Shown here: positions 5,830 to 30,981 of the stretch, piece by piece
Layout: every line of letters starts with the position of its first letter
Numbering within the stretch: position 1 is the stretch's first letter
The notes under the pieces: model-generated
What the model saw: only the letters and a program-made list of their open reading frames with translations
Databases searched by the model: none
Told to the model about the DNA's origin: nothing
Made by a program: the position numbers and the translations under genes
Source: a phage
DNA: 43,865 nucleotides
Assembly (NCBI GenBank): GCA_032298335.1
Contig: GCA_032298335.1_4702.1
Strand: one strand, 5' to 3'

Positions 5830-5845
5830 GTCTCACATGTGAGAC
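5830..5845. repeat. 16-bp perfect palindrome GTCTCACATGTGAGAC (copy 1)
   Basis: Exact self-complementary 16-mer immediately upstream of a promoter variant. Confidence 0.9.
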
Positions 5846-5847
5846 TT

Positions 5848-5868
5848 ATTTACCGGACACTATAGGAT
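5848..5868 (+). promoter_or_regulatory. Phage RNA polymerase promoter variant (ATTTACCGGACACTATAGGAT)
   Basis: Matches the window consensus ATTTACTGGACACTATAGAAG except at -11 and +3/+4. Confidence 0.6.
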
Positions 5869-5916
5869 AGCCGTCGGAGACGGGAAAGAAAGGGAAGATA
5901 AAGGATATAAAAGGAA

Positions 5917-5963
5917 GTAATAGGTATTAAAGGTTATATAGGTTATCTAGGAATACCTATTAC
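5917..5963. repeat. 12-bp perfect inverted repeat flanking a 23-bp AT-rich spacer
   Basis: GTAATAGGTATT at 5917-5928 and its reverse complement AATACCTATTAC at 5952-5963, inside an AT-rich non-coding stretch between two promoters. Confidence 0.8.
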
Positions 5964-6011
5964 CTTCTTCCTTCCTCTTATTACTACTTAGAGGAAGGGC
6001 AGATCTAGGTT

Positions 6012-6027
6012 GTCTCACATGTGAGAC
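6012..6027. repeat. 16-bp perfect palindrome GTCTCACATGTGAGAC (copy 2)
   Basis: Exact repeat of the palindrome at 5830, again directly upstream of a promoter variant. Confidence 0.9.
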
Positions 6028-6032
6028 TTCGT

Positions 6033-6053
6033 ATTTACCGGACAGTATAGATA
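6033..6053 (+). promoter_or_regulatory. Phage RNA polymerase promoter variant (ATTTACCGGACAGTATAGATA)
   Basis: Promoter-like sequence with C to G at -5 and a changed +3; upstream of the gp1.1-like and primase genes. Confidence 0.5.
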
Positions 6054-6079
6054 AGACTAACTTACTTTGGGATTTAACC

Positions 6080-6208
6080 ATGCGTAACTTTGAGAAGATG
6101 ACCCGTAAAGCTAACCGCTTTGACATGGAAGAAGGGCAGAAGAAAGGCAAGAAGCTGAATAAACCTGTCCGTGACCGTGCATCTAAACGCGCTGCGTGGG
6201 AGTTCTAA
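6080..6208 (+). CDS. Small basic protein, T7 gp1.1-like (42 aa)
   Basis: Begins MRNFEKM and ends WEF; lysine/arginine-rich; sits directly downstream of the RNA polymerase gene as T7 gene 1.1 does. Similarity is from memory. Confidence 0.6.
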   Translation: MRNFEKMTRKANRFDMEEGQKKGKKLNKPVRDRASKRAAWEF

Positions 6209-6211
6209 ATT

Positions 6212-8200
6212 ATGGCTATTATTCAGAATGTACCGTGTCCTGCCTGTCAAAAGAATGGACATGATATTACTGGCAACCATCTTATGATATTTGAGGATGG
6301 CGCTGGTTACTGTAACCGTGGTCACTTCCATGATAATGGGAAGCCTTATTACCATAAGCCAGAGGGTGGTATCGAGATAACCGAATTGCCTATTACTGGC
6401 AATATCAAATATACACCTTCTCAATTCAAAGAAATGGAGAAGGAAGGGAAGATAAGCGACCCTAAGCTACGCGCCATCGCACTTGGTGGTATGCGTATGA
6501 AAGACCGTTGGGAGGTTATGAATGAGCAAGAAAGGGCAGACCAAGAAGCAGAGTGGAAACTTGATGTTGAATGGTTCCTCACGCTTAAGCGTAAGAACCT
6601 TGTATCCCGTCACATTCGAGGTGACATCGCAGCAATGTACGATGTGCGCGTTGGACACGATGAAGAGGGAAGAGTCAACCGTCACTATTATCCACGATAT
6701 GAAAAGGGTGTGCTTGTTGGAGCAAAATGCCGGACGTTGCCGAAGGATTTTAAGTTCGGACACCTAGGTAAACTCTTTGGTATGCAAGATCTTTTCGGTA
6801 TGAATACTTTGTCTCACGTGTTAGACAAGGGGAGGCGAAAGGATTGCTTGCTTATTGTAGGCGGTGAACTTGATGCACTAGCAGCGCAGCAGATGCTCCT
6901 TGATTCTGCCAAGGGTACTAAGTGGGAAGGACAACCATATCATGTGTGGTCTGTCAACAAGGGCGAGTCTTGCCTTGAAGAGATAGTGCAGAACCGTGAG
7001 CATATCGCCCAATTCAAGAAGATTATATGGGGTTTTGATGGAGATGAGGTAGGGCAGAAGCAGAATCAGCAAGCGGCTCGCCTGTTTCCTGGCAAATCCT
7101 ATATCCTTGAATACCCCTCTGGTTGCAAAGATGCTAACAAGGCATTGATGGCTGGCAAGGCCAAAGAGTTTGTTGATGCATGGTTTAATGCCAAGTCATC
7201 TGATGAAGTCTTTGGTAGCCAGATTAAATCTATCGCATCTCAAAGGGATAAGCTCAAGGCTGCACGTCCAGAGCAAGGACTATCATGGCCTTGGCCTAAG
7301 CTGAACAAGGTAACGCTAGGTATTCGTAAGAACCAACTTATCATTGTAGGCGCAGGCTCTGGTGTAGGTAAGACTGAGTTCCTTCGTGAAGTAGTTAAGC
7401 ACCTCATTGAAGAACACGGTGAATCTGTAGGCATCATTTCTACAGAAGACCCGATGGTCAAGGTGTCCCGTGCTTTTATCGGCAAGTGGATTGATAAGCG
7501 TATTGAGTTACCGCCAACCAACGACCCTAAAGAAGACGGATACCGTGAGGTGTTCGACTACACCGAGGAAGAAGCTAACGCCGCCATTGATTATGTAGCT
7601 GATACAGGTAAGCTGTTTGTAGCTGACCTAGAGGGTGACTATTCGATGGAAAAGGTAGAGCAAACTTGCCTAGAGTTTGAGGCTATGGGCATTTCTAATA
7701 TCATCATTGATAACTTAACGGGGATTAAATTAGATGAGCGTGCTTTTGGTGGGAAGGTTGGTGCACTTGATGAATGCGTCAAGCGGATTGGTACTATCAA
7801 AGACCGACACCCGGTTACTATATTCCTTGTATCACACCTTACACGTCCTCCGGCAAACCGTACCCAACACGAAGAAGGTGGCGAAGTTATCCTTTCTGAC
7901 TTCCGAGGCTCAGGCGCTATCGGATTCTGGGCATCTTACGCCTTGGGGATTGAGCGTAATACAAGAGCTGAAACGCTTGACGAAAGGACTACCACGTACA
8001 TCTCTTGTGTCAAAGACCGCGACCAAGGAATATTTTCCGGTACTCGTATAATGCTTAAAGGTGATATTGCTACTGGTCGATTACGTGAACCAGAGCAAAG
8101 ATCTCGACCGTTTGATACTGGTGCTCCAAAAGAACAAACTGTACCAGAAGAAGTAGTGGATAAAGGAGGATTTATTGCTGACGAAGTTGAAGAGTTTTGA
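6212..8200 (+). CDS. Bifunctional DNA primase/helicase (T7 gp4-like)
   Basis: N-terminal zinc-ribbon CPACQ...CNRGHFH; Walker A GAGSGVGKTEF; helicase motifs IIIDNLTG and VSHLTRPPANRTQHEEGGEVILSDFRGSGAIG paralleling T7 gp4; acidic C-terminus ending EEF. Confidence 0.95.
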   Translation: MAIIQNVPCPACQKNGHDITGNHLMIFEDGAGYCNRGHFHDNGKPYYHKPEGGIEITELPITGNIKYTPSQFKEMEKEGKISDPKLRAIALGGMRMKDRWEVMNEQERADQEAEWKLDVEWFLTLKRKNLVSRHIRGDIAAMYDVRVGHDEEGRVNRHYYPRYEKGVLVGAKCRTLPKDFKFGHLGKLFGMQDLFGMNTLSHVLDKGRRKDCLLIVGGELDALAAQQMLLDSAKGTKWEGQPYHVWSVNKGESCLEEIVQNREHIAQFKKIIWGFDGDEVGQKQNQQAARLFPGKSYILEYPSGCKDANKALMAGKAKEFVDAWFNAKSSDEVFGSQIKSIASQRDKLKAARPEQGLSWPWPKLNKVTLGIRKNQLIIVGAGSGVGKTEFLREVVKHLIEEHGESVGIISTEDPMVKVSRAFIGKWIDKRIELPPTNDPKEDGYREVFDYTEEEANAAIDYVADTGKLFVADLEGDYSMEKVEQTCLEFEAMGISNIIIDNLTGIKLDERAFGGKVGALDECVKRIGTIKDRHPVTIFLVSHLTRPPANRTQHEEGGEVILSDFRGSGAIGFWASYALGIERNTRAETLDERTTTYISCVKDRDQGIFSGTRIMLKGDIATGRLREPEQRSRPFDTGAPKEQTVPEEVVDKGGFIADEVEEF

Positions 8201-8663
8201 GGCAGCAGGATATACCATCAAGGAGGATGGTACTATCCTTAACCCTAAAGGTGTAATACTTAAACCGAGCCAATCAGGAAGGAAATTAAAGTATTTATAT
8301 GTAAGTTGGAGACATCAAGGAAGAAGAGTAACAGAGCTTGTACACAGATTGGTTGCTAAGAAGTACATACCCAACCCACACAGTTTACCAGAAGTTCATC
8401 ATAAAGACTTTAACCCTCTTAATTGTCATAAAGACAATCTTGAATGGACAGATGGTAAGACTAATTGTGAGTATAGTTATGCAAGGGTAGAAGCTGCACT
8501 TGCACGTCATGCTACTTTATTGTCACCTGATGGCATTAAGTACGACATATTTAATGTTCGTAAATTCTGCCGCGAACATGGCCTCAATCCACCTAGTGTA
8601 TTTGAGGTGCTTAGTGGTAAACGGAAGTCACATAAAGGGTGGACTATTTACCGGACACTATAG
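8175..8663 (+). CDS. HNH homing endonuclease
   Basis: HRLVA...NP...PEVHHKDFNPLNCHKDNLEWTDGKTN HNH motif; AT-rich relative to neighbours; overlaps the helicase 3' end; paralog of the gene at 43214. Confidence 0.85.
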   Translation: MLTKLKSFEAAGYTIKEDGTILNPKGVILKPSQSGRKLKYLYVSWRHQGRRVTELVHRLVAKKYIPNPHSLPEVHHKDFNPLNCHKDNLEWTDGKTNCEYSYARVEAALARHATLLSPDGIKYDIFNVRKFCREHGLNPPSVFEVLSGKRKSHKGWTIYRTL

Positions 8664-8666
8664 AAG
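8646..8666 (+). promoter_or_regulatory. Phage RNA polymerase promoter (ATTTACCGGACACTATAGAAG)
   Basis: Near-consensus promoter; the HNH gene's TAG stop (8661-8663) ends on the predicted +1 G. Confidence 0.8.
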
Positions 8667-8776
8667 ACATTATTCGTAAGCAAGGGTTGAAGGGTCTTCA
8701 CATCTTAAATGGTGAAGAATTACTGTACCTACCTATCGTTACTGAAGAAACCTACGTGAATATCTAAGAGTTAATC

Positions 8777-8995
8777 ATGACTAAAGTATTAATTTATATG
8801 CGTGGACCTCATAAATGCTATGCAGTTGTAGCACCAAATGGTGTTAAGCCCTATAGTACTTCAAAAGGATTGGCATTAATAGGTGCTAGTAGTAGTGCAA
8901 GTTTCCAAATGGAACTTTTTGGTCATTGGACTGAATGGCAATTCCGTGAGGATTTTAAAGTCATTGGCAGCTTCATGGTGAAACATGCAGAATAA
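8777..8995 (+). CDS. Hypothetical protein (72 aa)
   Basis: ORF with no recognisable motif. Confidence 0.5.
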   Translation: MTKVLIYMRGPHKCYAVVAPNGVKPYSTSKGLALIGASSSASFQMELFGHWTEWQFREDFKVIGSFMVKHAE

Positions 8996-9008
8996 ACATA
9001 GTCTTAAA

Positions 9009-9158
9009 ATGTTCGATGGTCATGAAGACCTGCAAGCCAAGATTACTAACCAAGCCTTCCTGTTCGCACAGTTAACTATGGCTGAAGCAAAGAAGAATAG
9101 CCTGACGCGTGAACAGGTTATCAAGGAAAGTGAAGTGAAACGTAAGATTCGCAGTTGA
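9009..9158 (+). CDS. Small hypothetical protein (49 aa)
   Basis: Short ORF found by manual translation; no clear ribosome-binding site. Confidence 0.25.
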   Translation: MFDGHEDLQAKITNQAFLFAQLTMAEAKKNSLTREQVIKESEVKRKIRS

Positions 9159-9170
9159 TAAGTCAAGGGT

Positions 9171-9188
9171 TGTCTCACACGTGAGACA
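9171..9188. repeat. Palindrome variant TGTCTCACACGTGAGACA (copy 3)
   Basis: 8-bp arms identical to the 16-mer palindrome with an altered central dinucleotide; followed by a T-rich stretch. Confidence 0.8.
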
Positions 9189-9218
9189 GCCTTTCATCAT
9201 ATTGATTGGAGGTGCATT

Positions 9219-9326
9219 ATGCCACGTGATTATGATTCTGATTGGGACTATTATGACTCAATGAATCCAAAACCCGAACGTTCAGATGATTACTACGAAA
9301 CAGAGGCAATGTATGAAGACTATTAA
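9219..9326 (+). CDS. Small acidic Tyr/Asp-rich protein (35 aa)
   Basis: GGAGG ribosome-binding site 8 nt upstream; sequence MPRDYDSDWDYYDSMNPKPERSDDYYETEAMYEDY. Confidence 0.4.
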   Translation: MPRDYDSDWDYYDSMNPKPERSDDYYETEAMYEDY

Positions 9327-9462
9327 ATTAAGCAAGGTTTGCTCTTGCGGTAAAGGCTATCGCAGTCGTATTGATGGTAAGTGTGGACATTGTAGGTCTA
9401 AGAAAGAGGCTGCTTTGTTTACAAATACCACAATGAACTCTCCTATAACTACCCTCATCTAA
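9313..9462 (+). CDS. Small zinc-ribbon-like protein (49 aa)
   Basis: Cys pairs CSC and CGHC (C-x-C ... C-x2-C); overlaps the upstream ORF stop. Confidence 0.4.
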   Translation: MKTIKLSKVCSCGKGYRSRIDGKCGHCRSKKEAALFTNTTMNSPITTLI

Positions 9463-9516
9463 CACCTAATTCTTTATTAGGACTTGGTTATAGGGCTAAA
9501 TACTTTGGAGCAATCT

Positions 9517-12063
9517 ATGAAATCAATTGATTGGAAGAAGGAAGCGGAAGGGCGCATCCTAGTTATGGACGCCGAGGCGAAAGGTCTACTTGATGCTATA
9601 CGCTATGGTCATCGTGAAGACGTGCATATCATCTGCTGTATGGACCTGTTGACTACAGAGGAGTTTCTCTTCTTCGACCCGTATGAGATGCGTGACCCTG
9701 AAGCAAGAGAACGCCTGAAGGAATGGGAAGGTCATCAAGATGGTGACTTGGTTGATGGTGTTAACTTCCTGAAGCACTGTGAGGCTATTGTGTCGCAGAA
9801 CTTCCTAGGGTATGACGGTCTTCTCTTTGAGAAAGCATTCCCTGATATTTGGAAAGGCTTTAACTATACCGAGAAGCGCGGTAAGGGCAGACTCCGTGCT
9901 GACCTGTGTCCGGTGCGAGTCATGGATACGCTGGTGATGAGTCGCCTGTTAAACCCCGATAGACGCCTTCCTCCGCAAGCATATGCCAAAGGTATGGGTA
10001 ACGTCGCCCCTCACTCAATTGAGGCGCACGGCATCCGTATAGGTCGCTATAAACCGGAGAACGAGGACTGGTCTAAACTAACTGACCACATGGTTCACCG
10101 TGTACGTGAGGACGTGGCGATTGGTCGTGACTTGTTCCTCTGGCTCTTTAACGGGGAATGGATGGAGCACAAACGCCGTGGCGTGAATAAACGCACGGGC
10201 CTAGGCATTGAGACAGCCTTCCACATGGAGTCCATTGTGGCGCTGGAGATGAGCCGTCAGGCCGAGCGCGGGTTCCGTCTGGACATCGACAAGGCTTTGG
10301 CCCGATGCGAAGAATTGGACGCTAAGATTGATGAGACAGTCGCAGCGTTCCGCCCTCACATGCCTATGCGTATCAAGTCTAAACCTTTTAAACCGGAAGA
10401 AAAGAATGAAGTATGCCAACGCGCAAATGAGTATGGAGCTAGCAACAATATACCTACTGTCCTTGACCCCTCACACTTTCTTCATGCCGAGAGACGAGGA
10501 GATCGCAAGACAGTATGGAGTGTCACTACTAAGTCTGGTGATTGGTCGGCTAGTGTCAAGAAAGACTTTCCTCACCTTAGAGGAAACCGTAATGACACGC
10601 CAAGCATCAAGTGGATTGGCGCTTACTCGCCTGTTACTTTCGAAGAGATTCCCTTGGGTAACAGGGATGCAGTTAAGCAAGTGCTCTATGAGTATGGATG
10701 GAAAGGTGTTGAATTTAACGATACCGAGCAAGCTCATCTCGATGAGCACGGAGTGTTACCAAAACCTTGGAGTGGTAAGATAAATGAAAAGTCCCTCACT
10801 TTATGGCAAGAAAGAGCCGCACGTGAAGGTAAAACAGCCCCTGATTGGTGCTTGGGTATCGCTGCATGGTACATACTCGTATCCCGTCGTGGTCAGATAC
10901 TCAACCGTGGTGACGTTGAAGCCTTCAACGAGAAGGGAACGTGGCCCTCGCAGGCTGGTGTACGAAAGTGTCGCGGCCTTGTACCTGTAGCATTCAACAA
11001 GGAGCTAGGAATCAATGCGCAGCAATACTACGAGAGGTACGGATGTTGGCCTACGTCTGACAAAGATGACGGAGAGTGGCGTGTTCCAGCTGTTGCTATT
11101 AGTATTGGCACTTCTACGTTCCGTATGCGTCATCGTAACGTGGTTAATATTCCTGCCCGTGGCTTGTATCCTTTACGTGATTTATTCATAGCAGGGAAAG
11201 GCAAGCTAATCCTTGGTTGTGACGGTGCAGGTCTTGAACTGCGTGTCCTGTCTCACTTCATGAATGACCCTGAGTACCAAGAGATTGTACTGCACGGTGA
11301 TATTCATACGCATAACCAGATGAAGGCTGGTCTTCCTAAGCGTGATATGGCGAAGACGTTTATATACGCCTTCCTCTATGGTTCTGGTATAGCCAACCTT
11401 GCAGCAGTCTGCGGTGTTACTGAGGAAGAAATGAAGGAAGTTGTGGCAAGATTCGAGATTGAACTACCGTCTCTTGCACGTCTTCGTGAGAATGTTATCG
11501 CACAAGGTAACAAGTTTGGCTACCTGCAAGCACTTGATGGGCATTGGGGTCGCATCCGCATGTCTGGTGGTGAACTTAAAGAGCACACGATGCTTAACGT
11601 ATTACTCCAGATGACTGGCTCTTTGTGTATGAAATATGCATTAGTCAAGGCATTTGCAGTAATGCGCAAGGAAGGTGTAGCTTTGGATGCTATGGGAAAT
11701 CCTTGTGGTGTGGCTAACGTGCATGATGAAATCCAGATGGAAGTTCCTGAAGAGGAGGTCTTGTATCTTAACTACGACCTACCTTTCACCTTAGATGGGT
11801 TCGAAACAGAGAAGGCTGCTGTGAAAGCAGTTTTCGATGCAGAGGAGAAACGTGTTCATGTGGATTCTGAAGGACGTATGTGGTCTGCTGCAAACCTAGT
11901 TAGCGTTGATGCTGATGCTGGTGTATTGCATTGCCAGCGCCGTTATCACCGTGCAGGTCATATCATTGCCGACGCCATGACTTGGGCAGGGCAGTATCTG
12001 AAGATGCGTTGCCCGATGGCAGGAGAATATAAGATTGGCGCAAGCTGGAAGGAAACACACTGA
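9517..12063 (+). CDS. DNA polymerase, family A (T7 gp5-like)
   Basis: Motifs DGAGLELRVLSHFM, GDIHTHNQ and AKTFIYAFLYGSG match T7 DNA polymerase motifs A/B; ATG at 9517 with a ribosome-binding site (the ORF track begins at an upstream TTG at 9484). Confidence 0.95.
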   Translation: MKSIDWKKEAEGRILVMDAEAKGLLDAIRYGHREDVHIICCMDLLTTEEFLFFDPYEMRDPEARERLKEWEGHQDGDLVDGVNFLKHCEAIVSQNFLGYDGLLFEKAFPDIWKGFNYTEKRGKGRLRADLCPVRVMDTLVMSRLLNPDRRLPPQAYAKGMGNVAPHSIEAHGIRIGRYKPENEDWSKLTDHMVHRVREDVAIGRDLFLWLFNGEWMEHKRRGVNKRTGLGIETAFHMESIVALEMSRQAERGFRLDIDKALARCEELDAKIDETVAAFRPHMPMRIKSKPFKPEEKNEVCQRANEYGASNNIPTVLDPSHFLHAERRGDRKTVWSVTTKSGDWSASVKKDFPHLRGNRNDTPSIKWIGAYSPVTFEEIPLGNRDAVKQVLYEYGWKGVEFNDTEQAHLDEHGVLPKPWSGKINEKSLTLWQERAAREGKTAPDWCLGIAAWYILVSRRGQILNRGDVEAFNEKGTWPSQAGVRKCRGLVPVAFNKELGINAQQYYERYGCWPTSDKDDGEWRVPAVAISIGTSTFRMRHRNVVNIPARGLYPLRDLFIAGKGKLILGCDGAGLELRVLSHFMNDPEYQEIVLHGDIHTHNQMKAGLPKRDMAKTFIYAFLYGSGIANLAAVCGVTEEEMKEVVARFEIELPSLARLRENVIAQGNKFGYLQALDGHWGRIRMSGGELKEHTMLNVLLQMTGSLCMKYALVKAFAVMRKEGVALDAMGNPCGVANVHDEIQMEVPEEEVLYLNYDLPFTLDGFETEKAAVKAVFDAEEKRVHVDSEGRMWSAANLVSVDADAGVLHCQRRYHRAGHIIADAMTWAGQYLKMRCPMAGEYKIGASWKETH

Positions 12064-12179
12064 TGGATAGGCTTGACATTATTTGCCTATTCTTCACTCT
12101 CTTTCTTACACTCCTTATGCTTGCTTGTTATGGGAGTATGAGACTAGATATACCTGATGAAGAAGAGGGTTACGACTAA
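12063..12179 (+). CDS. Mini membrane protein (38 aa)
   Basis: ATG overlaps the DNA polymerase stop (TGATG); one hydrophobic helix then an acidic tail ending YD. Confidence 0.4.
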   Translation: MDRLDIICLFFTLFLTLLMLACYGSMRLDIPDEEEGYD

Positions 12180-12277
12180 TGCAAACTGCTTTTATTATTC
12201 TTGGTATCATATTATTTATGGTAGTACTCTGGGCCTTCTCTGGCATTGACCCGGATTGTGATGGTAACTACGACTGA
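12179..12277 (+). CDS. Mini membrane protein (32 aa)
   Basis: ATG overlaps the upstream stop (TAATG); one hydrophobic helix then an acidic tail ending YD; same architecture as the preceding peptide. Confidence 0.4.
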   Translation: MQTAFIILGIILFMVVLWAFSGIDPDCDGNYD

Positions 12278-12345
12278 GTTATACTCAAGGTCACTTACGA
12301 GTGGCCTTTATGGATAACTTATCCCTACTTATTTTGTCTAACATG

Positions 12346-12366: not shown

Positions 12367-12432
12367 GAAAGCCTAGACAATCTAGGTTTATAAGGTAGTA
12401 TAGGTAATTAAGTAAATATAGGAGATATAAAC

Positions 12433-13276: not shown

Positions 13277-14083
13277 ATGGCACGTGGTGATTTTGATTTT
13301 GGTGCTTCCGTATCTAAAGCTGAAGGTAAAGTCTTTAAGAACCCAGAAGTAGGTGATCATGAAGCAGTAATCTCTGGCATCATTCATGTTGGTTCCTTCC
13401 AAGATATCTTTAAGAAAGGTAATACCACTGAAGTTAAGAAGCCAGCAAACTTTGTTCTTGTTAAGATTATCCTGATGGGTGACGACGATAAGAATGAAGA
13501 TGATTCTCGCATGGAACAATGGATGGCTGTGCCTCTGAAGTCTGGTGATAAGGCAACACTGACTAAGTTCCTGAATGCAGTTGACCCTAAAGAGTTGCTG
13601 GGTGGCTTCGATGATTTTATCGGTGAATGTCTGACTGCAACTATGGTTGGCTCTGGCGACAAGAATGATGATGGTACTTTCAAGTATGTTAACTGGAAAG
13701 GCTTTGGCGGTATGCCTGATAAGTTGAAGAAGCTTGTACTGGCTCAGGTAGAAGAGGAAGGTCTGTCTATGACAGGTCATATCACCTTCGACAAGCTGAC
13801 CAAAGAAATCCTTGATGACATTCCTGCTAACTGGGTGCGTCAATACTTCCTTAATGAAACACCTCGTGGTAAGAACCTGTCTGTTGCTGGTTCTCACGTA
13901 GAAGCAATCATTAAAGCTGCTCGTGAAGAAGACCCAGAGTGGAAGAAAGCCAAGAAGAAAGATGACGAGGATGCTACTCCAGCTAATCGTAAATCTCTGG
14001 ATACTGGTGAGTCTGTTCCACAGGAAGTACCTGAAGCAGAAGATACTCCTGCACCGGAGATGGATGAGGACGCGGAATATTAA
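13277..14083 (+). CDS. Acidic-tailed protein, candidate ssDNA-binding protein (268 aa)
   Basis: High-expression codon usage; acidic C-terminal tail ending DEDAEY; comparable in size and position class to T7 gp2.5. The functional call is an inference. Confidence 0.6.
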   Translation: MARGDFDFGASVSKAEGKVFKNPEVGDHEAVISGIIHVGSFQDIFKKGNTTEVKKPANFVLVKIILMGDDDKNEDDSRMEQWMAVPLKSGDKATLTKFLNAVDPKELLGGFDDFIGECLTATMVGSGDKNDDGTFKYVNWKGFGGMPDKLKKLVLAQVEEEGLSMTGHITFDKLTKEILDDIPANWVRQYFLNETPRGKNLSVAGSHVEAIIKAAREEDPEWKKAKKKDDEDATPANRKSLDTGESVPQEVPEAEDTPAPEMDEDAEY

Positions 14084-14312: not shown

Positions 14313-14328
14313 GTCTCACATGTGAGAC
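14313..14328. repeat. 16-bp perfect palindrome GTCTCACATGTGAGAC (copy 4)
   Basis: Exact copy, 16 nt upstream of the promoter at 14344. Confidence 0.9.
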
Positions 14329-14343
14329 AAATCGGTGTCCGGT

Positions 14344-14364
14344 ATTTACTGGACACTATAGAAG
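14344..14364 (+). promoter_or_regulatory. Phage RNA polymerase promoter (ATTTACTGGACACTATAGAAG)
   Basis: Exact consensus. Confidence 0.85.
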
Positions 14365-14415: not shown

Positions 14416-14790
14416 ATGTTCAAGATTGAAACTATCGTAAACCGTGTTGTTAAAGGTGCTGCTCTGGTATCCGTTGAGTCTTTCATTATCGTCGATGAAG
14501 CTGATCAACTGGTAGCTGGTACTAAGGCTTATGATACTCGTGAAGAAGCTCAGGCTAAGATTGACAGCATGGGTAACTTCGCTGCGGGTCTGGAGTTCGC
14601 TCGTGCTTGCTTCCCTGAGCAGGCTGACAAAGCTCAGATTGGTAAGGCTAATATCGTAGCTGAATATCTGGATTGGATTGCTGCTGGTAAGCCGGTGAAA
14701 GAAGTTAAAGCTGCGGAAGAAGTTGAAGCTCCGGCAGTAGAAGAAGTAGCTGCACCGGAAGTTCCGGTAAGCGAAGAAGAAGAGTTTTAA
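14416..14790 (+). CDS. Small highly acidic protein with C-terminal EEEEF tail (124 aa)
   Basis: Strong ribosome-binding site; codon usage like the capsid gene; net charge about -13; own promoter upstream and terminator-like hairpin downstream. Confidence 0.7.
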   Translation: MFKIETIVNRVVKGAALVSVESFIIVDEADQLVAGTKAYDTREEAQAKIDSMGNFAAGLEFARACFPEQADKAQIGKANIVAEYLDWIAAGKPVKEVKAAEEVEAPAVEEVAAPEVPVSEEEEF

Positions 14791-24876: not shown

Positions 24877-27278
24877 TGGAAGTACAAGGTTCATTAGGTA
24901 GACAAATCCAAGGGATTAGCCAGCAGCCGCCAGCGGTACGCTTGGATGGTCAGTGCACAGCTATGGTTAATATGATACCTGATGTAGTGAATGGTACTCA
25001 ATCACGCATGGGTACAACTCATATTGCAAAGATACTTGATGCTGGGACTGATGACATGGCTATTCATCATTATCGCAGAGGTGATGGTGATGAAGAGTAT
25101 TTCTTCACGTTGAAGAAAGGACAAGTTCCTGAGATATTTGATAAGTATGGGCGCAAATGTAATGTGACTTCACAAGATGCACCTATGACCTACCTCTCTG
25201 AGGTTGTTAATCCAAGGGAAGATGTACAATTCATGACGATAGCTGATGTTACTTTCATGCTTAATCGTAGGAAAGTAGTTAAAGCTAGTAACAGGAAGTC
25301 ACCTAAAGTTGGAAACAAAGCCATTGTGTTTTGTGCGTATGGTCAATATGGTACATCTTATTCCATTGTAATTAATGGGACCAACGCTGCTAGTTTTAAA
25401 ACACCGGATGGTGGAAGTGCAGACCATGTTGAACAAATTCGAACTGAACGTATCACTTCTGAATTGTACTCTAAGTTGCAGCAATGGAGCGGTGTGAGTG
25501 ACTATGAAATACAAAGAGACGGTACTAGTATATTTATCGAGAGACGGGATGGTGCTAGCTTTACAATAACAACCACCGATGGTGCAAAAGGTAAGGACTT
25601 AGTGGCTATCAAGAATAAAGTTAGCTCTACTGACCTACTCCCTTCTCGTGCGCCTGCTGGTTATAAAGTACAAGTGTGGCCTACTGGCAGCAAACCTGAG
25701 TCTCGTTACTGGCTGCAAGCTGAGCCTAAAGAGGGAAACCTTGTGTCTTGGAAAGAAACAATAGCTGCTGATGTATTACTTGGGTTTGATAAAGGCACAA
25801 TGCCTTACATTATTGAACGTACAGATATCATCAACGGCATAGCTCAATTCAAGATAAGACAAGGTGATTGGGAAGATCGTAAAGTAGGGGATGACTTGAC
25901 TAACCCTATGCCCTCTTTTATTGATGAGGAGGTACCCCAGACAATAGGTGGAATGTTCATGGTGCAGAACCGCCTATGCTTTACAGCAGGTGAAGCGGTT
26001 ATTGCTTCTCGTACATCATACTTCTTCGATTTCTTTCGTTATACGGTTATCTCTGCATTGGCAACTGACCCATTTGATATTTTCTCAGATGCTAGTGAAG
26101 TCTACCAGCTAAAAAATGCAGTGACCTTAGATGGCGCTACCGTGTTGTTCTCTGATAAGTCACAATTCATACTGCCAGGCGATAAGCCTTTAGAGAAGTC
26201 AAATGCACTGCTTAAGCCTGTTACAACATTTGAAGTGAACAATAAAGTGAAGCCAGTAGTAACTGGTGAATCGGTAATGTTTGCCACTAATGATGGTTCT
26301 TACTCTGGTGTACGAGAGTTCTATACAGACTCTTATAGTGACACTAAGAAGGCACAAGCAATCACAAGTCATGTGAATAAACTCATCGAAGGTAACATTA
26401 CCAACATGGCAGCAAGCACCAATGTCAACAGGTTACTTGTCACTACCGATAAGTATCGTAACATAATCTACTGCTACGATTGGTTATGGCAAGGAACAGA
26501 CCGTGTACAATCAGCATGGCATGTATGGAAGTGGCCTATAGGTACAAAGGTGCGAGGTATGTTTTATTCTGGTGAATTACTTTACCTGCTCCTTGAGCGA
26601 GGAGATGGCGTATATCTGGAGAGGATGGACATGGGTGATGCACTAACCTACGGTTTGAATGACCGCATCAGAATGGATAGGCAAGCAGAGTTAGTCTTCA
26701 AGTATTTTAAAGCAGAAGATGAATGGGTATCTGAACCGCTCCCTTGGACTCCTACTAACCCAGAACTTTTAGATTGCATCTTAATCGAGGGTTGGGATTC
26801 ATATATTGGTGGCTCTTTCTTATTCAAGTACAACCCTAGTGACAATACTTTGTCTACAACCTTTGATATGTATGATGACAGTCATGTAAAAGCGAAGGTT
26901 ATTGTTGGTCAGATTTACCCTCAAGAGTTTGAACCTACGCCTGTGGTTATCAGAGACAATCAAGACCGTGTATCCTACATTGATGTACCAGTTGTAGGAT
27001 TGGTTCACCTTAATCTTGACATGTACCCCGATTTCTCCGTAGAAGTTAAGAATGTGAAGAGTGGTAAAGTACGTAGAGTATTAGCGTCAAACCGTATAGG
27101 TGGTGCTCTCAATAATACAGTAGGCTATGTTGAACCGAGAGAAGGTGTCTTCAGATTTCCACTGAGAGCTAAGAGCACGGATGTTGTTTATCGTATTATT
27201 GTAGAGTCACCTCACACATTCCAGCTTCGTGATATTGAGTGGGAAGGGAGCTACAATCCAACCAAAAGGAGGGTCTAA
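24876..27278 (+). CDS. Tail tubular protein B (gp12-like)
   Basis: 800 aa ORF translationally coupled (TAATG) to the tail tube A gene; size and position match T7 gp12. Confidence 0.8.
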   Translation: MEVQGSLGRQIQGISQQPPAVRLDGQCTAMVNMIPDVVNGTQSRMGTTHIAKILDAGTDDMAIHHYRRGDGDEEYFFTLKKGQVPEIFDKYGRKCNVTSQDAPMTYLSEVVNPREDVQFMTIADVTFMLNRRKVVKASNRKSPKVGNKAIVFCAYGQYGTSYSIVINGTNAASFKTPDGGSADHVEQIRTERITSELYSKLQQWSGVSDYEIQRDGTSIFIERRDGASFTITTTDGAKGKDLVAIKNKVSSTDLLPSRAPAGYKVQVWPTGSKPESRYWLQAEPKEGNLVSWKETIAADVLLGFDKGTMPYIIERTDIINGIAQFKIRQGDWEDRKVGDDLTNPMPSFIDEEVPQTIGGMFMVQNRLCFTAGEAVIASRTSYFFDFFRYTVISALATDPFDIFSDASEVYQLKNAVTLDGATVLFSDKSQFILPGDKPLEKSNALLKPVTTFEVNNKVKPVVTGESVMFATNDGSYSGVREFYTDSYSDTKKAQAITSHVNKLIEGNITNMAASTNVNRLLVTTDKYRNIIYCYDWLWQGTDRVQSAWHVWKWPIGTKVRGMFYSGELLYLLLERGDGVYLERMDMGDALTYGLNDRIRMDRQAELVFKYFKAEDEWVSEPLPWTPTNPELLDCILIEGWDSYIGGSFLFKYNPSDNTLSTTFDMYDDSHVKAKVIVGQIYPQEFEPTPVVIRDNQDRVSYIDVPVVGLVHLNLDMYPDFSVEVKNVKSGKVRRVLASNRIGGALNNTVGYVEPREGVFRFPLRAKSTDVVYRIIVESPHTFQLRDIEWEGSYNPTKRRV

Positions 27279-28000
27279 TGGCTATAGGTTCAGCCGTTAT
27301 GGCTGGTATGTCTTCTATTGGTAGCATGTTTGCAGGCAGTGGTGCAGCAGCCGCTGCTGGAGGTGCTGCCGCAGGTGGCGGAGGCTTGCTAGGTTCTCTA
27401 GGTGGCTTCCTAAGCGGCTCTACTGCTGGCTTCTCTAATGCTGGGCTTCTTGGTGCTGGCCTTCAAGGTTTAGGCTTGATTGGTGATCTCTTTGGTGGAA
27501 GTGATGAAGCCAAGGCAATGAAGAAAGCACAAGAAGAACAGTGGCGGCAGCAACTTATTGCTACACAAGAAGCATACAAAACAGTAGCAGATGCAGAGCG
27601 TTCTGCTGCTAAACAATATCATGCAGATGCAATAAGCAATCAGGCTTCACTACTACAGCAGCGAGCACAGGTTGCATTACTAGCAGGTGCTACTGGTACT
27701 GGTGGTAACTCTGTAACTTCTATGCTGAATGACTTAGCAGCAGAGGGCGGGAGGAACCAGAGTACAATTATTGATAACTATGAGAATCAGAAGATTAACT
27801 TCACCAATCAGCTTAAGTCTATCCAGCGAGGTGGACAGATGCAGATGCGTGAGTTTAAGAAGCCTTCTGCCGTGAGCACCTTGGTGCAAGGTATACCGAG
27901 TCTGGCATCTGCCTATGTAACAGGTAGTAAGTCCGGCATGGCTTTAGGTAAAGCTTTAACTGATTCTCGTACATATTCATCTGGAACAAGAGGTATTTAA
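27278..28000 (+). CDS. Internal virion protein, Gly/Ala-rich
   Basis: Low-complexity N-terminal region; translationally coupled within the tail/core module. Confidence 0.7.
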   Translation: MAIGSAVMAGMSSIGSMFAGSGAAAAAGGAAAGGGGLLGSLGGFLSGSTAGFSNAGLLGAGLQGLGLIGDLFGGSDEAKAMKKAQEEQWRQQLIATQEAYKTVADAERSAAKQYHADAISNQASLLQQRAQVALLAGATGTGGNSVTSMLNDLAAEGGRNQSTIIDNYENQKINFTNQLKSIQRGGQMQMREFKKPSAVSTLVQGIPSLASAYVTGSKSGMALGKALTDSRTYSSGTRGI

Positions 28001-30948
28001 TGGCAATTGAGCGACAAGCAGTACAAGGTCTGCCACAAGTGCAGGCCACTTCTCCTAATGTCATGACCTTTGCACCTCAGCGAGTTGGAGGTGTGGAGGC
28101 TGGTGTAGCTTCTACCTCCGGTAGTCGATTTATCGAAGACCTTATTCGAGCAGCCAGTAGTGTAGCTGATGTAACCACTGGTATCCTTAATCAAAAGATT
28201 GAGGAAGATAAGGTTGTTCAAATGGAACGGGCATATAACGGATTAATGCCTTCTGAGGATGCAACTCGTGGTGGCGCTCGTGCTAACATGCTTGTCAAAG
28301 CTCAACTGCTAGCTAATGATGAAGCAGCACGAATGAAAGACATGGCTACTCGTTTCCAAGGGACGGATGACGAGTGGACACAACTTATGGTTGACTCTCG
28401 TAATGAGATGCAGAATAAGCTGTTCCAGCAATACCCTGAGTTGCAAGGTGACAAAGATACTATGCGTATGGTCACTAATGTCTTCCAAGAACAGCAGCCT
28501 CAGATTTGGGCGACACGAACCCAGCATAAACTTGACCGTGAACAAGCAGACCGTGAGGATACCTTTGACGGGCGAGTGGCTTCTACTTGGGATTCTAATA
28601 TTGACCCTGAAGCATCTGGCTATGCTTTACAGGAACGAATCCGCGAAGGTCTTACTCAAGGATTACTACCTGAACAGATGCACAAGAAGTTAGTCCAGCG
28701 AGCAATTTCACTTGCACAAGGCGGTGATGTTAGCATGGCTGAAGCCCTGAAGTATGTGAAGGACGATAAGGGTGTTTCTGTTTATGCTAAGAATCCACAG
28801 CTTATCACAGCCATCACTAGTGGTAATGCAGTTTGGGCTAGGAATAATGTAGCTGATGTAACTCGTATGTCTTTCGAAGTTAAAGAATCATACCTTGCAG
28901 GTGATTTAACTGATGAAGAATTGTTGGAACGAGCACAGCACATTAATAATCTGACAGGTAACTATGTCTTCTCTAATCCAGAACTAGAGGCACTGATGCG
29001 CCAACGGGCTAAGCAGAATGCAGAGCTAGGTGCAATGCAGGATATGCGACGTGAGCTTTACTCCGACCGCCTGACTGGCTTCCAAGGTAAGACTGATAAA
29101 GAGAAGAAGGCTTACATTGATGTTATCAAACAGGATAGCCAACTTTATGCAGACCAGCAAATCAAACAACGTGGCTTGGATCCTTACAGTCAAGAGGCTG
29201 AAGCTATTCGTGGTGCAGTGGAAGTGCAGCGTCTGCAATTCATGAACTCCAAAGGCTTAGTGGATGACACCTTTGAGTCTCGTATCAAAGCCATGGAATC
29301 TATGCTATCGCCTGAGCACTTTGCCAAGGGCGAACCACAGGAGTTGATGACTATTCGCCAGTTGTGGGAACAGTTGCCAGAAGAGAGCCGAGGTGTCTTT
29401 GGTGACACGGTTAATGGCTACATGGATAACTACAACACTGCACTACAAATGGGAGAGACACCTTTGCAGGCTGCAAGGTTTGCGCGTGAAGCACAGCAGA
29501 AATTCTCTCGTACTGAGAAGGAAACCAAGAAGTTCAACTCAGCTATTGGAGATGCACTGGATGAGGTGTCTGGTGCTGGCTGGTTTGATGGTAAAACCGA
29601 AGTGTCAGACTTAGGTAAAGCTATTGCGGAAGAAGAGTTACGAGCTAAGGCCAATATGTTGTGGTCTAGCGGTATGCGTAACATGGATTCTATCAAGAAG
29701 GCTTTAATTACTTGGGGCAACAAACGCTACACTCAATCAGAGGATGCAAAGACTTCCGGTGGCTATTTCATTAAAGGTGATTACACTTCTGCATCTGATA
29801 TGCTTATGTCAGTTGGGAAAGGTGTAAACCCTACCGATGTCCCTCTGGCGCTTGGTAGGTATGTAGAAACACAGATGCCAGAATTGAAGAAGGAGCTTCA
29901 AGAGTGGGAAACTAAGGATGATGTGTACATTGATTACAATGAACAGAAAGGAACTTTTGTGATTCGTGCTGGTGCAGCAGGTCGCCCTCTTTCTGGAGTA
30001 ATCCCTGTAACTTCTTTGGATACCACTTCACTACTGGATTCTGCCTATCAGAAGAAAGTAGAAGAACGAAATAAAGGCGAGTATGTTCACCCTTATCGTA
30101 CAGATATTGGTGCACAAGAGCCTATGCCAGCTAAACCAACTGCCAAAGATATTGGTAAATTTGGACTAGCTAACTTCCTCATGTCTTCTGCTTTTGCTTC
30201 TGGTGAGAATCTACCTTCTAATTTCGAGATTAACTATCGAGGTAATATGCAACAATTCTATGACAAGCTAGCTATGGATGAGAATAAAGATAAAGTTGGC
30301 TTTAATAAGGCAACTGGAACCTTTACTCCATATAAAGACGCTCACGGCGAGTCTATCGGTTACGGTCATTTCTTAACGGAAGAAGAGAAGCGAAACGGGT
30401 ATATTAAGATTGGCGATGAACTAGTTCCCTATCGAGGATCTATGTCTCAGCTTACAGAGAGTAAGGCTCGCGCTCTTATGGAGCAAGATGCTAAGAAGCA
30501 TGTGCCTTCTACTCGTGACTGGAAGATTCCGTTTGACCAGATGCATCCTGCACAGCAACGTGGCTTGATGGATTTAACCTACAATTTAGGTAAAGGTGGA
30601 ATCCAGAACTCACCGCGTGCTCTTGCTGCATTCAAAGCTGGTAAGCTTACGGAAGGCTTTATCGAAATGCTGGGCACTGCATCAAGTGAAGGTAAACGTA
30701 TTCCGGGCCTACTGAAGCGACGCGCTGAGGCATACAATATGGCAGCTGCTGGTGGTGTACCTAAGATCACAGAAGTGGAGACGAGGGAAGATGGCTCTAT
30801 GTGGGTTAAGTTTGGTGGACCTATGCCAGCAGGCTCTGTTTCTGCGTGGACGCATAAACGTATTGGAGCCGATGGCTGGTATCAGGTTTATGAGGCTGCA
30901 CCTACCAAGTTAGCTAAAGACTCTAAGGTAGGTAAAGTTAAATTGTAG
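28000..30948 (+). CDS. Internal virion (core) protein with C-terminal lysozyme-like domain
   Basis: 982 aa; the C-terminal region (about nt 30250-30750) contains YKDAHGESIGYGHFL and downstream blocks resembling T4 lysozyme YKDTEGYYTIGIGHLL. Confidence 0.8.
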   Translation: MAIERQAVQGLPQVQATSPNVMTFAPQRVGGVEAGVASTSGSRFIEDLIRAASSVADVTTGILNQKIEEDKVVQMERAYNGLMPSEDATRGGARANMLVKAQLLANDEAARMKDMATRFQGTDDEWTQLMVDSRNEMQNKLFQQYPELQGDKDTMRMVTNVFQEQQPQIWATRTQHKLDREQADREDTFDGRVASTWDSNIDPEASGYALQERIREGLTQGLLPEQMHKKLVQRAISLAQGGDVSMAEALKYVKDDKGVSVYAKNPQLITAITSGNAVWARNNVADVTRMSFEVKESYLAGDLTDEELLERAQHINNLTGNYVFSNPELEALMRQRAKQNAELGAMQDMRRELYSDRLTGFQGKTDKEKKAYIDVIKQDSQLYADQQIKQRGLDPYSQEAEAIRGAVEVQRLQFMNSKGLVDDTFESRIKAMESMLSPEHFAKGEPQELMTIRQLWEQLPEESRGVFGDTVNGYMDNYNTALQMGETPLQAARFAREAQQKFSRTEKETKKFNSAIGDALDEVSGAGWFDGKTEVSDLGKAIAEEELRAKANMLWSSGMRNMDSIKKALITWGNKRYTQSEDAKTSGGYFIKGDYTSASDMLMSVGKGVNPTDVPLALGRYVETQMPELKKELQEWETKDDVYIDYNEQKGTFVIRAGAAGRPLSGVIPVTSLDTTSLLDSAYQKKVEERNKGEYVHPYRTDIGAQEPMPAKPTAKDIGKFGLANFLMSSAFASGENLPSNFEINYRGNMQQFYDKLAMDENKDKVGFNKATGTFTPYKDAHGESIGYGHFLTEEEKRNGYIKIGDELVPYRGSMSQLTESKARALMEQDAKKHVPSTRDWKIPFDQMHPAQQRGLMDLTYNLGKGGIQNSPRALAAFKAGKLTEGFIEMLGTASSEGKRIPGLLKRRAEAYNMAAAGGVPKITEVETREDGSMWVKFGGPMPAGSVSAWTHKRIGADGWYQVYEAAPTKLAKDSKVGKVKL

Positions 30949-30965
30949 TACCTAACTCAAGGCTT

Positions 30966-30981
30966 GTCTCACATGTGAGAC
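30966..30981. repeat. 16-bp perfect palindrome GTCTCACATGTGAGAC (copy 5)
   Basis: Exact copy between the two large internal virion protein genes, followed by GGTCTTTA. Confidence 0.9.

What the first reader, a model, noticed from the sequence alone, without database searches (positions are those of the whole stretch)
5830..30981. Recurring 16-bp perfect palindrome GTCTCACATGTGAGAC in intergenic DNA
Exact copies lie at 5830, 6012, 14313 and 30966, with a centre-variant at 9171 and a degenerate copy at about 291. All are intergenic and three sit 2-16 nt upstream of promoters. Five exact or near-exact 16-mers cannot be chance in 44 kb. They could be a protein-recognition site (a dimeric regulator or nuclease), a pause/termination hairpin for the phage polymerase, or an RNA-processing site.
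Basis: seen in the sequence. Interest (0 to 1): 0.55.

Follow-up and report, generated by a model that had tools for sequence, protein, structure and literature searches.

The report
Operator palindromes for a phage regulator
The repeated 16-bp palindrome is real and conserved across the whole SP6/K1-5 phage group, and it is most likely the DNA docking site of an uncharacterised early phage protein (gp6), which would give these supposedly regulator-free lytic phages a plasmid-style global regulator.

Summary
The window is a complete K1-5/K1E-like phage genome (Vectrevirus, SP6 supergroup). GTCTCACATGTGAGAC occurs exactly where reported. A seventh, 2-mismatch copy lies inside the primase/helicase gene. 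Chance expectation is 0.22 copies.

The motif GTCYNNN-R(N)Y-NNNRGAC is the most recurrent palindrome in every SP6-supergroup genome examined, down to about 40% RNA polymerase identity. It sits at the same syntenic sites in each genome. It is absent from T7-like phages.

Its inner bases change in concert at all sites of a genome. They co-vary with residues 66/68/69 of the helix-turn-helix recognition helix of gp6 (window 2132-3064). gp6 is an early protein found only in this supergroup, with a KorB/ParB-like DNA-binding domain and a J-like C-terminal domain.

A phage about 87% identical to the window has gp6 K69N, and all six of its syntenic palindromes read GTCCAAC..GTTGGAC.

I conclude the palindromes are double-stranded DNA operators of dimeric gp6 (confidence about 0.75). 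gp6's downstream role is inferred only: a KorB-like global regulator or roadblock, or an origin function.

Two window copies (9172, 30966) also cap RNA hairpins that are homologous in sequence and structure to the RNase III sites of phage T7. So the RNA-processing idea holds for their surroundings, not for the motif itself.

The parts
291..306 (.). Left-end copy GTCTCACATGTTAGAC (1 mismatch), upstream of the sigma-70-like early promoters (-35 hexamer at 341).
   Evidence: The syntenic copy is present in K1-5, SP6, phD2B, phiEa100, K13, Kpp-61, L092, L094 and L096.
2132..3064 (+). gp6 gene, the proposed trans-factor. Early gene immediately upstream of the RNA polymerase gene. N-terminal KorB/ParB-like HTH domain (residues 13-125), acidic linker, long helix 209-250, J-like C-terminal domain (255-309).
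2276..2362 (+). Helix-turn-helix of gp6 (QKDFLAYVESEFGIKKAQCYKLMSVARVF). Q66 is codon 2327-2329, Y68 is 2333-2335 and K69 is 2336-2338. These residues co-vary with the palindrome half-site.
5763..5786 (+). Strong intrinsic terminator hairpin after the RNA polymerase gene (end of the early operon), 44 nt before the first palindrome. The order terminator, palindrome, promoter is conserved in all lineages.
5830..5845 (.). Exact palindrome, 2 nt upstream of phage promoter 5848-5867. It spans -35 to -20 relative to the start site.
6012..6027 (.). Exact palindrome, 5 nt upstream of phage promoter 6033-6052 (-38 to -23).
6811..6826 (.). Intragenic copy GTCTCACGTGTTAGAC in the primase/helicase gene, read xxG TCT CAC GTG TTA GAC (SHVLD). 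The perfect right arm would create a TGA stop codon.
   Evidence: The homologous copy follows each genome's own motif class in K1-5, SP6, K13, Kpp-61, phD2B, L026, BD1 and L096.
9172..9187 (.). Palindrome with centre AC. It forms the apex of RNase III-type hairpin B1.
9152..9207 (+). RNase III-type processing hairpin B1 (pre-DNA-polymerase site): lower stem, asymmetric internal loop, 13-bp upper stem. Predicted cleavage after U9197 by analogy with T7.
   Evidence: Fold, covariation, CM score 70.9 bits.
14313..14328 (.). Exact palindrome, 1 nt after the gp17 stop codon and 15 nt upstream of phage promoter 14344-14363 (-48 to -33).
30966..30981 (.). Exact palindrome. It forms the apex of RNase III-type hairpin B2, between gp35 and gp36.
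30946..31001 (+). RNase III-type processing hairpin B2. Its flanks AACUCAAGG...CUUUAUGAU match the T7 R-site consensus. Predicted cleavage after U30991.
   Evidence: 72.1 bits.

Best explanation
The 16-bp palindromes are double-stranded DNA operators for a dimer of the phage's own early protein gp6 (window 2132-3064). gp6 has a KorB/ParB-type helix-turn-helix domain, and residues Q66, Y68 and K69 of its recognition helix read the half-site GTCTCAC(R). A predicted long helix (209-250) probably makes the dimer that matches the twofold-symmetric site. gp6 is made from host-polymerase early transcripts. It would then occupy about seven sites, concentrated in the left third of the genome. One lies upstream of the early promoters. 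Two abut the first two phage promoters after the early terminator. One lies in the primase/helicase gene, and in other genera also in the RNA polymerase, ligase and kinase genes. One precedes the gp18 promoter. Two lie on top of intergenic hairpins. The association of gp6 with the motif is supported by co-evolution and fold. What binding achieves is inferred. The most likely role is a KorB-like global regulator or roadblock that tunes the early-to-middle transcription switch, because the operator edges lie at -16 to -36 of the adjacent promoters and so abut the polymerase footprint. Separately, copies 9172 and 30966 are transcribed as the apical 7 bp of hairpins of the same family as the RNase III sites of phage T7. 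Those hairpins are probably cut by host RNase III. The palindrome merely occupies the part of the stem that RNase III does not read.
For: (1) Conservation. A de novo count of inverted repeats gives GTCYNNN as the most recurrent palindrome arm in all 10 complete SP6-supergroup genomes and in about 50 metagenomic loci, down to about 40% RNAP identity. It gives none in T7 or in 23 T7-like loci.
(2) Concerted evolution. Every site in a genome carries that genome's variant, including sites inside genes, where the encoded peptide changes with the variant. In the primase/helicase gene the peptide is SHVLD or SNVLD. In the RNAP gene the motif is kept in two different reading frames, giving SNVLD or VSRCET.
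(3) Symmetry. The central bases obey R(N)Y in 290 of 299 distinct copies. Half-site 7-mers occur only as palindromes.
(4) Phyletic match. gp6 is found in all supergroup loci that include the region and in no T7-like locus.
(5) Co-variation. GTCTCAC goes with Q..YK, GTCYAAC with Q..YN or Q..YH, GTCTACA with Y..YR, GTCTAGT with W..YR, and GTTTCAC and GTTCGAG with S at position 68. On the RNAP tree there are at least 8 independent coincident changes. Among 2674 alignment columns of six conserved proteins, gp6 K69 ranks first for association with the motif class. It is the only column invariant in class A and different in classes B, C and D.
(6) Prospective tests. Contigs were chosen by gp6 helix alone. 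P0128 (N69) had GTCTAAC four times. P0129 (Y..YR) had GTCTACC. L096 is about 87% nucleotide-identical to the window and has K69N as the only change in the recognition helix. All six of its syntenic sites are GTCCAAC..GTTGGAC with window-like flanks.
(8) RNase III part. 21 elements from 3 syntenic sites share one structure with 96% of cells paired, against 35-44% when the pairing is slid. Covariation is 0.525 against at most 0.105, and there are many G·U pairs valid only on the + strand. A covariance model built only from these elements finds five known RNase III sites of T7 (R0.3, R18.5, R0.5, R1.1, R4.7) as its only T7 hits with E<5.
Confidence: 0.75

Rival explanations
1. The motif acts only as an RNA hairpin. 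All copies would be processing, stability or protein-binding hairpins in the + strand transcripts (RNase III or another RNase), and the link with gp6 would be coincidental lineage history.
For: Copies 9172 and 30966, and K1-5 8393, are integral parts of hairpins with strong covariation and homology to T7 R-sites. All copies lie on the transcribed strand. In Vibrio and Erwinia phages several bare copies sit directly before a Shine-Dalgarno sequence, at positions where T7 has R sites, for example just before the RNAP gene. SP6 keeps a U·G-compatible asymmetry in 7 of 9 copies. Spacers of 2 and 3 nt coexist in Premi.
Against: The bare copies have only a 6-7 bp stem and no conserved extension, so they are too short for RNase III. 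Their predicted folds are not better than shuffles (5830 z -1.7, 6012 z -0.2, 291 z +0.4). A structure-only constraint would not keep all copies of a genome identical, nor switch them together. T7-type hairpins without the palindrome exist in the same genome (12274, 3059, 1233). Arm mismatches across lineages are about as often A·C-type as G·U-type. The loop obeys a twofold R..Y symmetry that has no meaning in RNA. The gp6 helix co-variation, including the K69N near-isogenic case, has no explanation under this model.
Confidence: 0.1
2. The palindrome is a double-stranded DNA site for a different dimeric protein, not gp6. This could be another phage protein or a host factor conserved in gamma-proteobacteria.
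For: The evidence for symmetry, concerted evolution and syntenic conservation does not by itself name the protein. The gp6 assignment rests on correlation and a moderate fold match.
Against: Phages of one host use different variants. E. coli phages include K1-5 with GTCTCAC, L096 with GTCCAAC and ECBP5 with GTCTAGT, which argues against a host factor. In the screen of RNAP, helicase, DNAP, gp16 and gp18, no column tracks the motif as gp6 K69 does. Other small ORFs are not conserved across the supergroup.
Confidence: 0.08
3. The motif is a pause or termination hairpin for the phage or host RNA polymerase. The Proteus phage Premi record annotates the equivalents as terminators.
For: The consensus scan lists 5830 and 6012 as weak terminator-like sites. 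The Premi annotation calls the homologous elements 'terminator'.
Against: The stem has 6 pairs with only 3 G-C. Copies 14313, 9172 and 30966 have no U-run. Copies inside the RNAP, helicase and ligase genes would truncate essential messages. A true strong terminator already stands 44 nt upstream of 5830. This model does not explain the sequence identity between copies or the gp6 co-variation.
Confidence: 0.04
4. The motif is a selfish or mobile miniature palindrome, or the by-product of recombination, with no function.
For: K1-5 site B1 has a cap of the other class in otherwise identical flanks, which suggests short-patch exchange.
Against: The sites are syntenic from E. coli to Vibrio and Pseudomonas phages. 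There is no insertion polymorphism. The motif is kept inside genes at the cost of amino-acid changes.
Confidence: 0.02

Closest known systems
KorB and its OB operators on IncP plasmid RK2
RNase III processing sites of phage T7 (R0.3, R0.5, R1.1, R4.7, R18.5 and others)
   Same: Copies 9172 and 30966 cap hairpins with the same architecture: a lower stem, an asymmetric internal loop of about 4/5 nt and an upper stem. They share the flanking consensus ACUCAAGG...CCUUUAUGAU. The covariance model cross-detects five T7 sites. The architecture of R1.1 is described in PMC6121014.
   Different: T7 sites have variable apical sequences. Here the apex is a fixed, genome-specific palindrome that also occurs alone. 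Five of the seven window copies have no RNase III-type structure. Cleavage was not tested.
Lambdoid repressor/operator specificity pairs (lambda, 434, P22)
   Same: Recognition-helix residues and the bases of a symmetric operator change together between related phages, which defines specificity classes.
   Different: Those are immunity systems of temperate phages with a few clustered operators. Here the phage is strictly lytic and the sites are scattered over the early and middle regions.
DUF3102 (PF11300) proteins of phages and plasmids
   Same: There are sub-threshold Pfam hits for the N-terminal region of gp6 orthologues (also flagged faint) and Foldseek matches to viral DUF3102 proteins.
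   Different: The family has no assigned function or DNA site. The window protein itself does not reach any Pfam threshold.

Membership tests
Operator of a dimeric HTH regulator (KorB-OB-like system) | A twofold-symmetric double-stranded DNA sequence, repeated as whole palindromes. | tested here: met
   There are perfect 7+7 arms, and the central bases obey R(N)Y in 290/299 copies. Half-sites occur essentially only in palindromes.
Operator of a dimeric HTH regulator (KorB-OB-like system) | A cognate DNA-binding protein with an HTH fold, encoded by the same replicon. | tested here: inconclusive
   [not shown]
Operator of a dimeric HTH regulator (KorB-OB-like system) | Recognition-helix residues and operator bases co-vary. 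| tested here: met
   (K69 ranks 1 of 2674 columns). Prospective checks, including K69N with all six sites switched.
Operator of a dimeric HTH regulator (KorB-OB-like system) | Specific binding, and an effect on transcription or replication. | not testable with these tools
   This needs EMSA or footprinting, ChIP-seq, and a gp6 mutant phage.
T7-type RNase III processing site | About two helical turns of dsRNA, interrupted by an asymmetric internal loop. | tested here: met
   Met for 9152-9207 and 30946-31001. Not met for 291, 5830, 6012, 6811 and 14313, which match the model only locally at 13-17 bits; 291 gave no match with E up to 10.
T7-type RNase III processing site | Evolutionary support for the pairing on the transcribed strand. 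| tested here: met
   96% of cells are paired against 35-44% when slid. 12 of 23 pairs show compensatory changes. The G·U pairs are valid only on the + strand.
T7-type RNase III processing site | Sequence and structure similarity to experimentally cleaved T7 sites. | tested here: met
   Model R1, built without T7 sequences, hits T7 R0.3, R18.5, R0.5, R1.1 and R4.7 with E from 6e-5 to 5e-3, and no other T7 hit has E<5. The T7 cleavage coordinates are from my memory of Dunn and Studier 1983.
T7-type RNase III processing site | Cleavage by host RNase III. | not testable with these tools
   This needs end mapping in rnc+ and rnc- hosts, or in vitro cleavage.
Intrinsic (class I) terminator | A G+C-rich stem followed directly by a U-run. 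| tested here: not met
   The stem has 6 pairs with 3 G-C. Only 5830 and 6012 have a U-rich tail, and 9172, 14313 and 30966 do not.
Mobile miniature palindromic element (REP/MITE-like) | Variable, non-syntenic insertion sites among relatives. | tested here: not met
   The same syntenic sites are occupied from Vectrevirus to Vibrio and Pseudomonas phages.
Rfam RNA families | A match at the gathering threshold. | tested here: not met
   No match in the whole window.

The most novel reading that the evidence does not exclude
gp6 is a previously unrecognised master organiser of SP6-supergroup phage development. It would be a KorB-like DNA-binding protein fused to a J-like (Hsp70 co-chaperone-type) domain, bound to about 7-12 co-evolving operators. 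By this binding it would replace the missing T7 gp0.7/gp2 functions, shutting off or re-routing early transcription. It might also mark the replication origin between the two post-RNAP promoters, in the manner of an origin-binding protein with a J domain such as polyomavirus large T antigen. DNA operators would be deliberately overlaid on RNase III hairpins to couple the two layers of control.
Probability: 0.25. Interest if true: 0.85.

Novelty: new variant of a known kind. Interest (0 to 1): 0.7.

Why it matters
T7-supergroup phages are the textbook case of development run by polymerases and polymerase inhibitors, with no sequence-specific DNA-binding regulators. From my memory of Scholl et al. 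2004, SP6/K1-5-like phages lack T7's host-shutoff proteins, so how they manage the early-to-middle switch is open.

A conserved early KorB-like protein with a genome-wide set of co-evolving operators gives a concrete, testable candidate. It also assigns a function and a DNA site to a DUF3102-like protein family that is widespread in phages. It supplies natural specificity-swap pairs (K69 with GTCTCAC, N69 with GTCCAAC) that are ready for biochemistry.

These phages (K1-5, K1E, SP6, and Klebsiella and Proteus relatives) are used in phage therapy and as the source of SP6 RNA polymerase. Knowing their regulatory sites therefore matters for genome engineering, because several sites lie inside essential genes.

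Tried and rejected
- Literature: no paper in the searchable library contains the motif or five of its variants. Keyword searches for SP6/K1-5 with palindrome, RNase III, KorB or J-domain found nothing relevant. The two 2004 SP6/K1-5 genome papers are not held, so an earlier mention there cannot be excluded.
- Rfam: no hit.
- CRP-like, MetJ-like or other host operators, and a primase recognition site: considered from memory and dropped. The half-site arrangement does not fit. SP6 primase is reported to use GCA, which the motif lacks.
- Wobble-asymmetry test on arm mismatches: about 6-7 G·U-type against about 5 A·C-type events. Inconclusive.
- Sequence search of gp6, gp16 and gp18 against PDB chains: nothing.
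- Foldseek of the gp6 model against the PDB: not significant, although the two top hits were ParB-DNA and VirB-DNA.
- First homologue search: returned only close relatives. A second search with a profile of distant orthologues was needed.
- Idea that the palindrome is a general accessory of phage promoters: rejected, because only 3 of 10 promoters have it.
- Terminator reading: rejected (see rivals).
- A scan of bacterial genomes for the motif was not run, because about 500 chance hits were expected.


Full report
**What the window is.** The 43,865-bp window is a complete genome of a K1-5/K1E-like coliphage (Vectrevirus, Molineuxvirinae, the 'SP6 supergroup' of T7-like phages). The intergenic region after the RNA polymerase gene is 94-99.5% identical to many Vectrevirus records. 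All long ORFs lie on the + strand. Gene order matches K1-5 and SP6.

**The observation.** GTCTCACATGTGAGAC is present exactly at 5830, 6012, 14313 and 30966. A centre variant lies at 9172-9187 and a 1-mismatch copy at 291-306. A 2-mismatch copy at 6811-6826 lies inside the primase/helicase gene. That makes 7 matches against 0.22 expected by chance.
- The window has ten phage promoters (consensus ATTTACYGGACACTATAGAA). Only three of them (5848, 6033, 14344) are preceded by the palindrome, at gaps of 2, 5 and 15 nt.
Two corrections apply: the centre variant starts at 9172, not 9171, and one conserved copy is intragenic.

**Conservation.** I counted perfect 7-nt inverted repeats with 2-4 nt spacers de novo.
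- The commonest arm in every SP6-supergroup genome is a variant of one motif. It is GTCTCAC in Vectrevirus and Erwinia phiEa100. It is GTCCAAC in Proteus, Klebsiella and Lelliottia phages. It is GTCTAAC in SP6 and Vibrio BD1, and GTCTAGT in ECBP5.
- In 79 metagenomic and viral loci centred on the RNAP gene, the family extends to Vibrio, Pseudomonas syringae and Marinomonas phages at about 40% RNAP identity. Further variants there are GTCTACA, GTTTCAC and GTTCGAG. All loci with T7-like RNAPs (26-30% identity) and T7 itself have none.
- The sites are syntenic: the left end upstream of the early promoters; after the early terminator that follows the RNAP gene and before the first one or two phage promoters; inside the primase/helicase gene; after that gene; before the DNA polymerase gene; before the gp18 promoter; and between gp35 and gp36. 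In many lineages there are also sites inside the RNAP, ligase and kinase genes.

**Two structural classes of copy.**
- Copies 9172 and 30966, and K1-5 8393, have a 5-6 bp extension rich in G·U, an asymmetric internal loop and a 7-12 bp lower stem.
- Twenty-one such elements from three syntenic sites in nine genomes share one consensus structure. In it 96% of cells are paired, against 35-44% when the 3' partners are slid. Covariation is 0.525 against at most 0.105. Twelve of 23 pairs show compensatory changes, and the conserved G·U pairs exist only on the + strand.
- Their flanks (AACUCAAGG...CUUUAUGAU) equal the consensus I found around the RNase III sites of T7 (T7 coordinates are from memory of Dunn and Studier 1983).
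- A covariance model built from the SP6-group elements alone retrieves T7 R0.3, R18.5, R0.5, R1.1 and R4.7 as its only T7 hits with E<5. T7 R1.1 is the classic RNase III substrate with a 4/5-nt internal loop (PMC6121014).
- These two window copies therefore sit on RNase III-type processing hairpins.
- The same model finds T7-type hairpins without the palindrome at 12274-12321, 3059-3108 and 1233-1278. The other five copies match the model only locally or not at all, and do not fold better than shuffled sequence. The palindrome is thus a separate module that can sit on the apex of such a hairpin.

**Why the module is read as DNA by a phage protein.**
- All copies within a genome are the same variant, and the variants switch together between lineages.
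- This holds even inside genes. In the primase/helicase gene the motif changes His to Asn with the class. In the RNAP gene it is maintained in two different reading frames, giving SNVLD or VSRCET. In Vectrevirus the right arm of the helicase copy stays GTTAGAC because GTGAGAC would create a TGA stop codon.
- Phages of the same host use different variants, which argues against a host factor.
- The central bases follow a twofold-symmetric R(N)Y rule in 290 of 299 copies.
- Arm mismatches show no excess of G·U over A·C.

**Finding the protein.** Of the K1-5 proteins, a non-structural set of unknown function is conserved through the supergroup and undetectable in T7: gp6, gp16, gp18 and a few more.
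- gp6 (window 2132-3064) is the gene just upstream of the RNAP gene. It is present in all 59 loci that include that region and in none of the T7-like loci.
- I screened gp6, RNAP, helicase, DNAP, gp16 and gp18 for columns that are invariant in the widely scattered GTCTCAC lineages but different in the GTCCAAC, GTCTAGT and GTCTACA clades. Only gp6 K69 qualified.
- Over 2674 columns, K69 ranks first for agreement with the motif class, at 0.94 against a next best of 0.90.
- K69, Q66 and Y68 lie in the sequence FGIKKAQCYKLM. The pairings are:
  - GTCTCAC with Q..YK
  - GTCYAAC with Q..YN, Q..YH or S..YN
  - GTCTACA with Y..YR
  - GTCTAGT with W..YR
  - GTCTAYT with Y..YN
  - the two GTT variants with S68
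- On an RNAP tree this amounts to at least eight independent coincident changes. Vectrevirus (K69) is nested among N69 phages.

**Prospective tests.** I picked gp6 homologues from a database search by their helix alone and fetched their contigs.
- An Erwinia-phage-like lineage with N69 has GTCTAAC four times.
- A Y..YR lineage has GTCTACC.
- A Q..FR lineage has GTCCCAC.
- Locus L096 is about 87% nucleotide-identical to the window over gp6, RNAP and helicase. Its only change in the recognition helix is K69N. All six of its syntenic palindromes read GTCCAAC-NN-GTTGGAC in window-like flanks. This is close to a natural specificity-swap experiment.

**Structure of gp6.** The AlphaFold2 model, built from a 38-sequence alignment, has mean pLDDT 73.6.
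- It has a confident N-terminal helical domain (residues 13-125, pLDDT about 90). Helix 49-60, a three-residue turn and helix 64-77 form a helix-turn-helix, with residues 66, 68 and 69 in the second helix.
- An acidic disordered linker and a long helix (209-250) follow. The C-terminal domain (255-309) is also confident.
- Foldseek against the PDB was not significant, although its top hits were ParB-DNA and VirB-DNA. BFVD gives phage DUF3102 proteins. Orthologues give sub-threshold DUF3102 Pfam hits.

**Mechanism.**
- Supported by co-evolution, phyletic distribution and fold: gp6 recognises the palindrome as double-stranded DNA, probably as a dimer.
- Inferred: what this achieves. The operator edge lies at -16 to -36 of the adjacent phage promoters, which abuts the polymerase footprint (from the contexts). 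One site precedes the host-type early promoters. Ancestral sites lie inside the RNAP and helicase genes. Almost all sites are in the early and middle third of the genome.
- This pattern resembles KorB and its OB operators on plasmid RK2. It would suit a regulator or roadblock that governs the early-to-middle switch in phages that, to my recollection of Scholl et al. 2004, lack T7's gp0.7 and gp2.
- An origin-related role is also possible. The two operators bracket a promoter plus a purine/pyrimidine-asymmetric repeat region at the position of the T7 primary origin.

**Caveats.**
- There are no binding data.
- The fold similarity is moderate.
- The residue-to-base code is not one-to-one.
- Three gp6-bearing loci lack an obvious palindrome.
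- Some Vectrevirus sites are non-cognate or degenerate (K1-5 559 and 9570, window 291).
- SP6 has a uniform T4/G13 asymmetry that would also suit an RNA hairpin.
- The 2004 genome papers could not be read, so I cannot exclude that the repeat itself was noted there. No accessible paper contains it.

**Verdict.** The finding is real and non-trivial. The best explanation is a set of DNA operators for gp6, with two copies doubling as the caps of RNase III-type hairpins. It is a new variant of a known kind (operator and regulator) in an unexpected setting, and it is directly testable.

Noticed in passing
window 12274-12321, 3059-3108, 1233-1278: There are T7-type RNase III-like hairpins without the palindrome. 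The one at 12274 reads ACUCAAGGUCACUUACGAGUGGCCUUUAUGGAU, almost the T7 R-site consensus. The one at 3059 lies between gp6 and the RNAP gene, the position of T7 R1. The one at 1233 lies before the ocr gene, the position of T7 R0.3.
   Followed up: partly
window 8175-8663: An HNH/I-HmuI-like homing endonuclease ORF lies directly after the primase/helicase gene. K1-5 has a palindrome-capped RNase III-type hairpin in the equivalent interval (K1-5 8393). Phage promoter 8646-8665 overlaps the 3' end of the ORF.
   Followed up: partly
window 5866-6010: The region between the two post-RNAP promoters has purine-rich then pyrimidine-rich arms forming long imperfect inverted repeats (5896-5981), plus TAGGTA-type repeats. 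Similar repeats occur in SP6, Premi and K13PH07C1S. This is a candidate replication origin, at the position of the T7 phi1.1A/B primary origin.
   Followed up: partly
window 14329-14358: An inverted repeat, GGTGTCCGGT / ACTGGACAC, pairs the sequence between the palindrome and the promoter with promoter positions about -12 to -4. In SP6 the two arms differ but still pair (GTGTCTCTT / AGGGGACAC, using G·U), which suggests a conserved hairpin that includes this one promoter.
   Followed up: no
[not shown]
   Followed up: partly
window 13277-14083 (gp16) and 14416-14790 (gp18): Both proteins end in acidic tails with a terminal aromatic residue (...DEDAEY and ...EEEEF). From memory, the T7 gp2.5 and gp4 tails that bind the DNA polymerase look the same. 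gp16 is probably the SSB, and gp18 may be another replisome partner.
   Followed up: no
L009 (ECBP5) 6034-6080 and 14567-14610; L057 (PP99) 7990, 16282: In the ECBP5/PP99 clade a second palindrome, GTACTAGTTRGCTAGTAC, follows the GTCTAGT palindrome by 7-11 nt. It closely resembles the E. coli trp operator. L065 has only this second type.
   Followed up: no
L001 (K1-5) 9570 and 559: K1-5 carries a non-cognate GTCCAAC..GTTGGAC cap on hairpin B1, in flanks otherwise almost identical to the window. It also has a GTCTAAC..GTTAGAC left-end site, although its gp6 has K69. This suggests short-patch exchange with an N69-class phage, or incomplete conversion after a specificity switch.
   Followed up: partly
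L003 (Premi) 5890-5930: An extra isolated half-site, TGTCCAACA, lies 9 nt upstream of the full palindrome after the RNAP terminator in Proteus phage Premi. The Premi record annotates the palindrome-capped hairpins as terminators.
   Followed up: no
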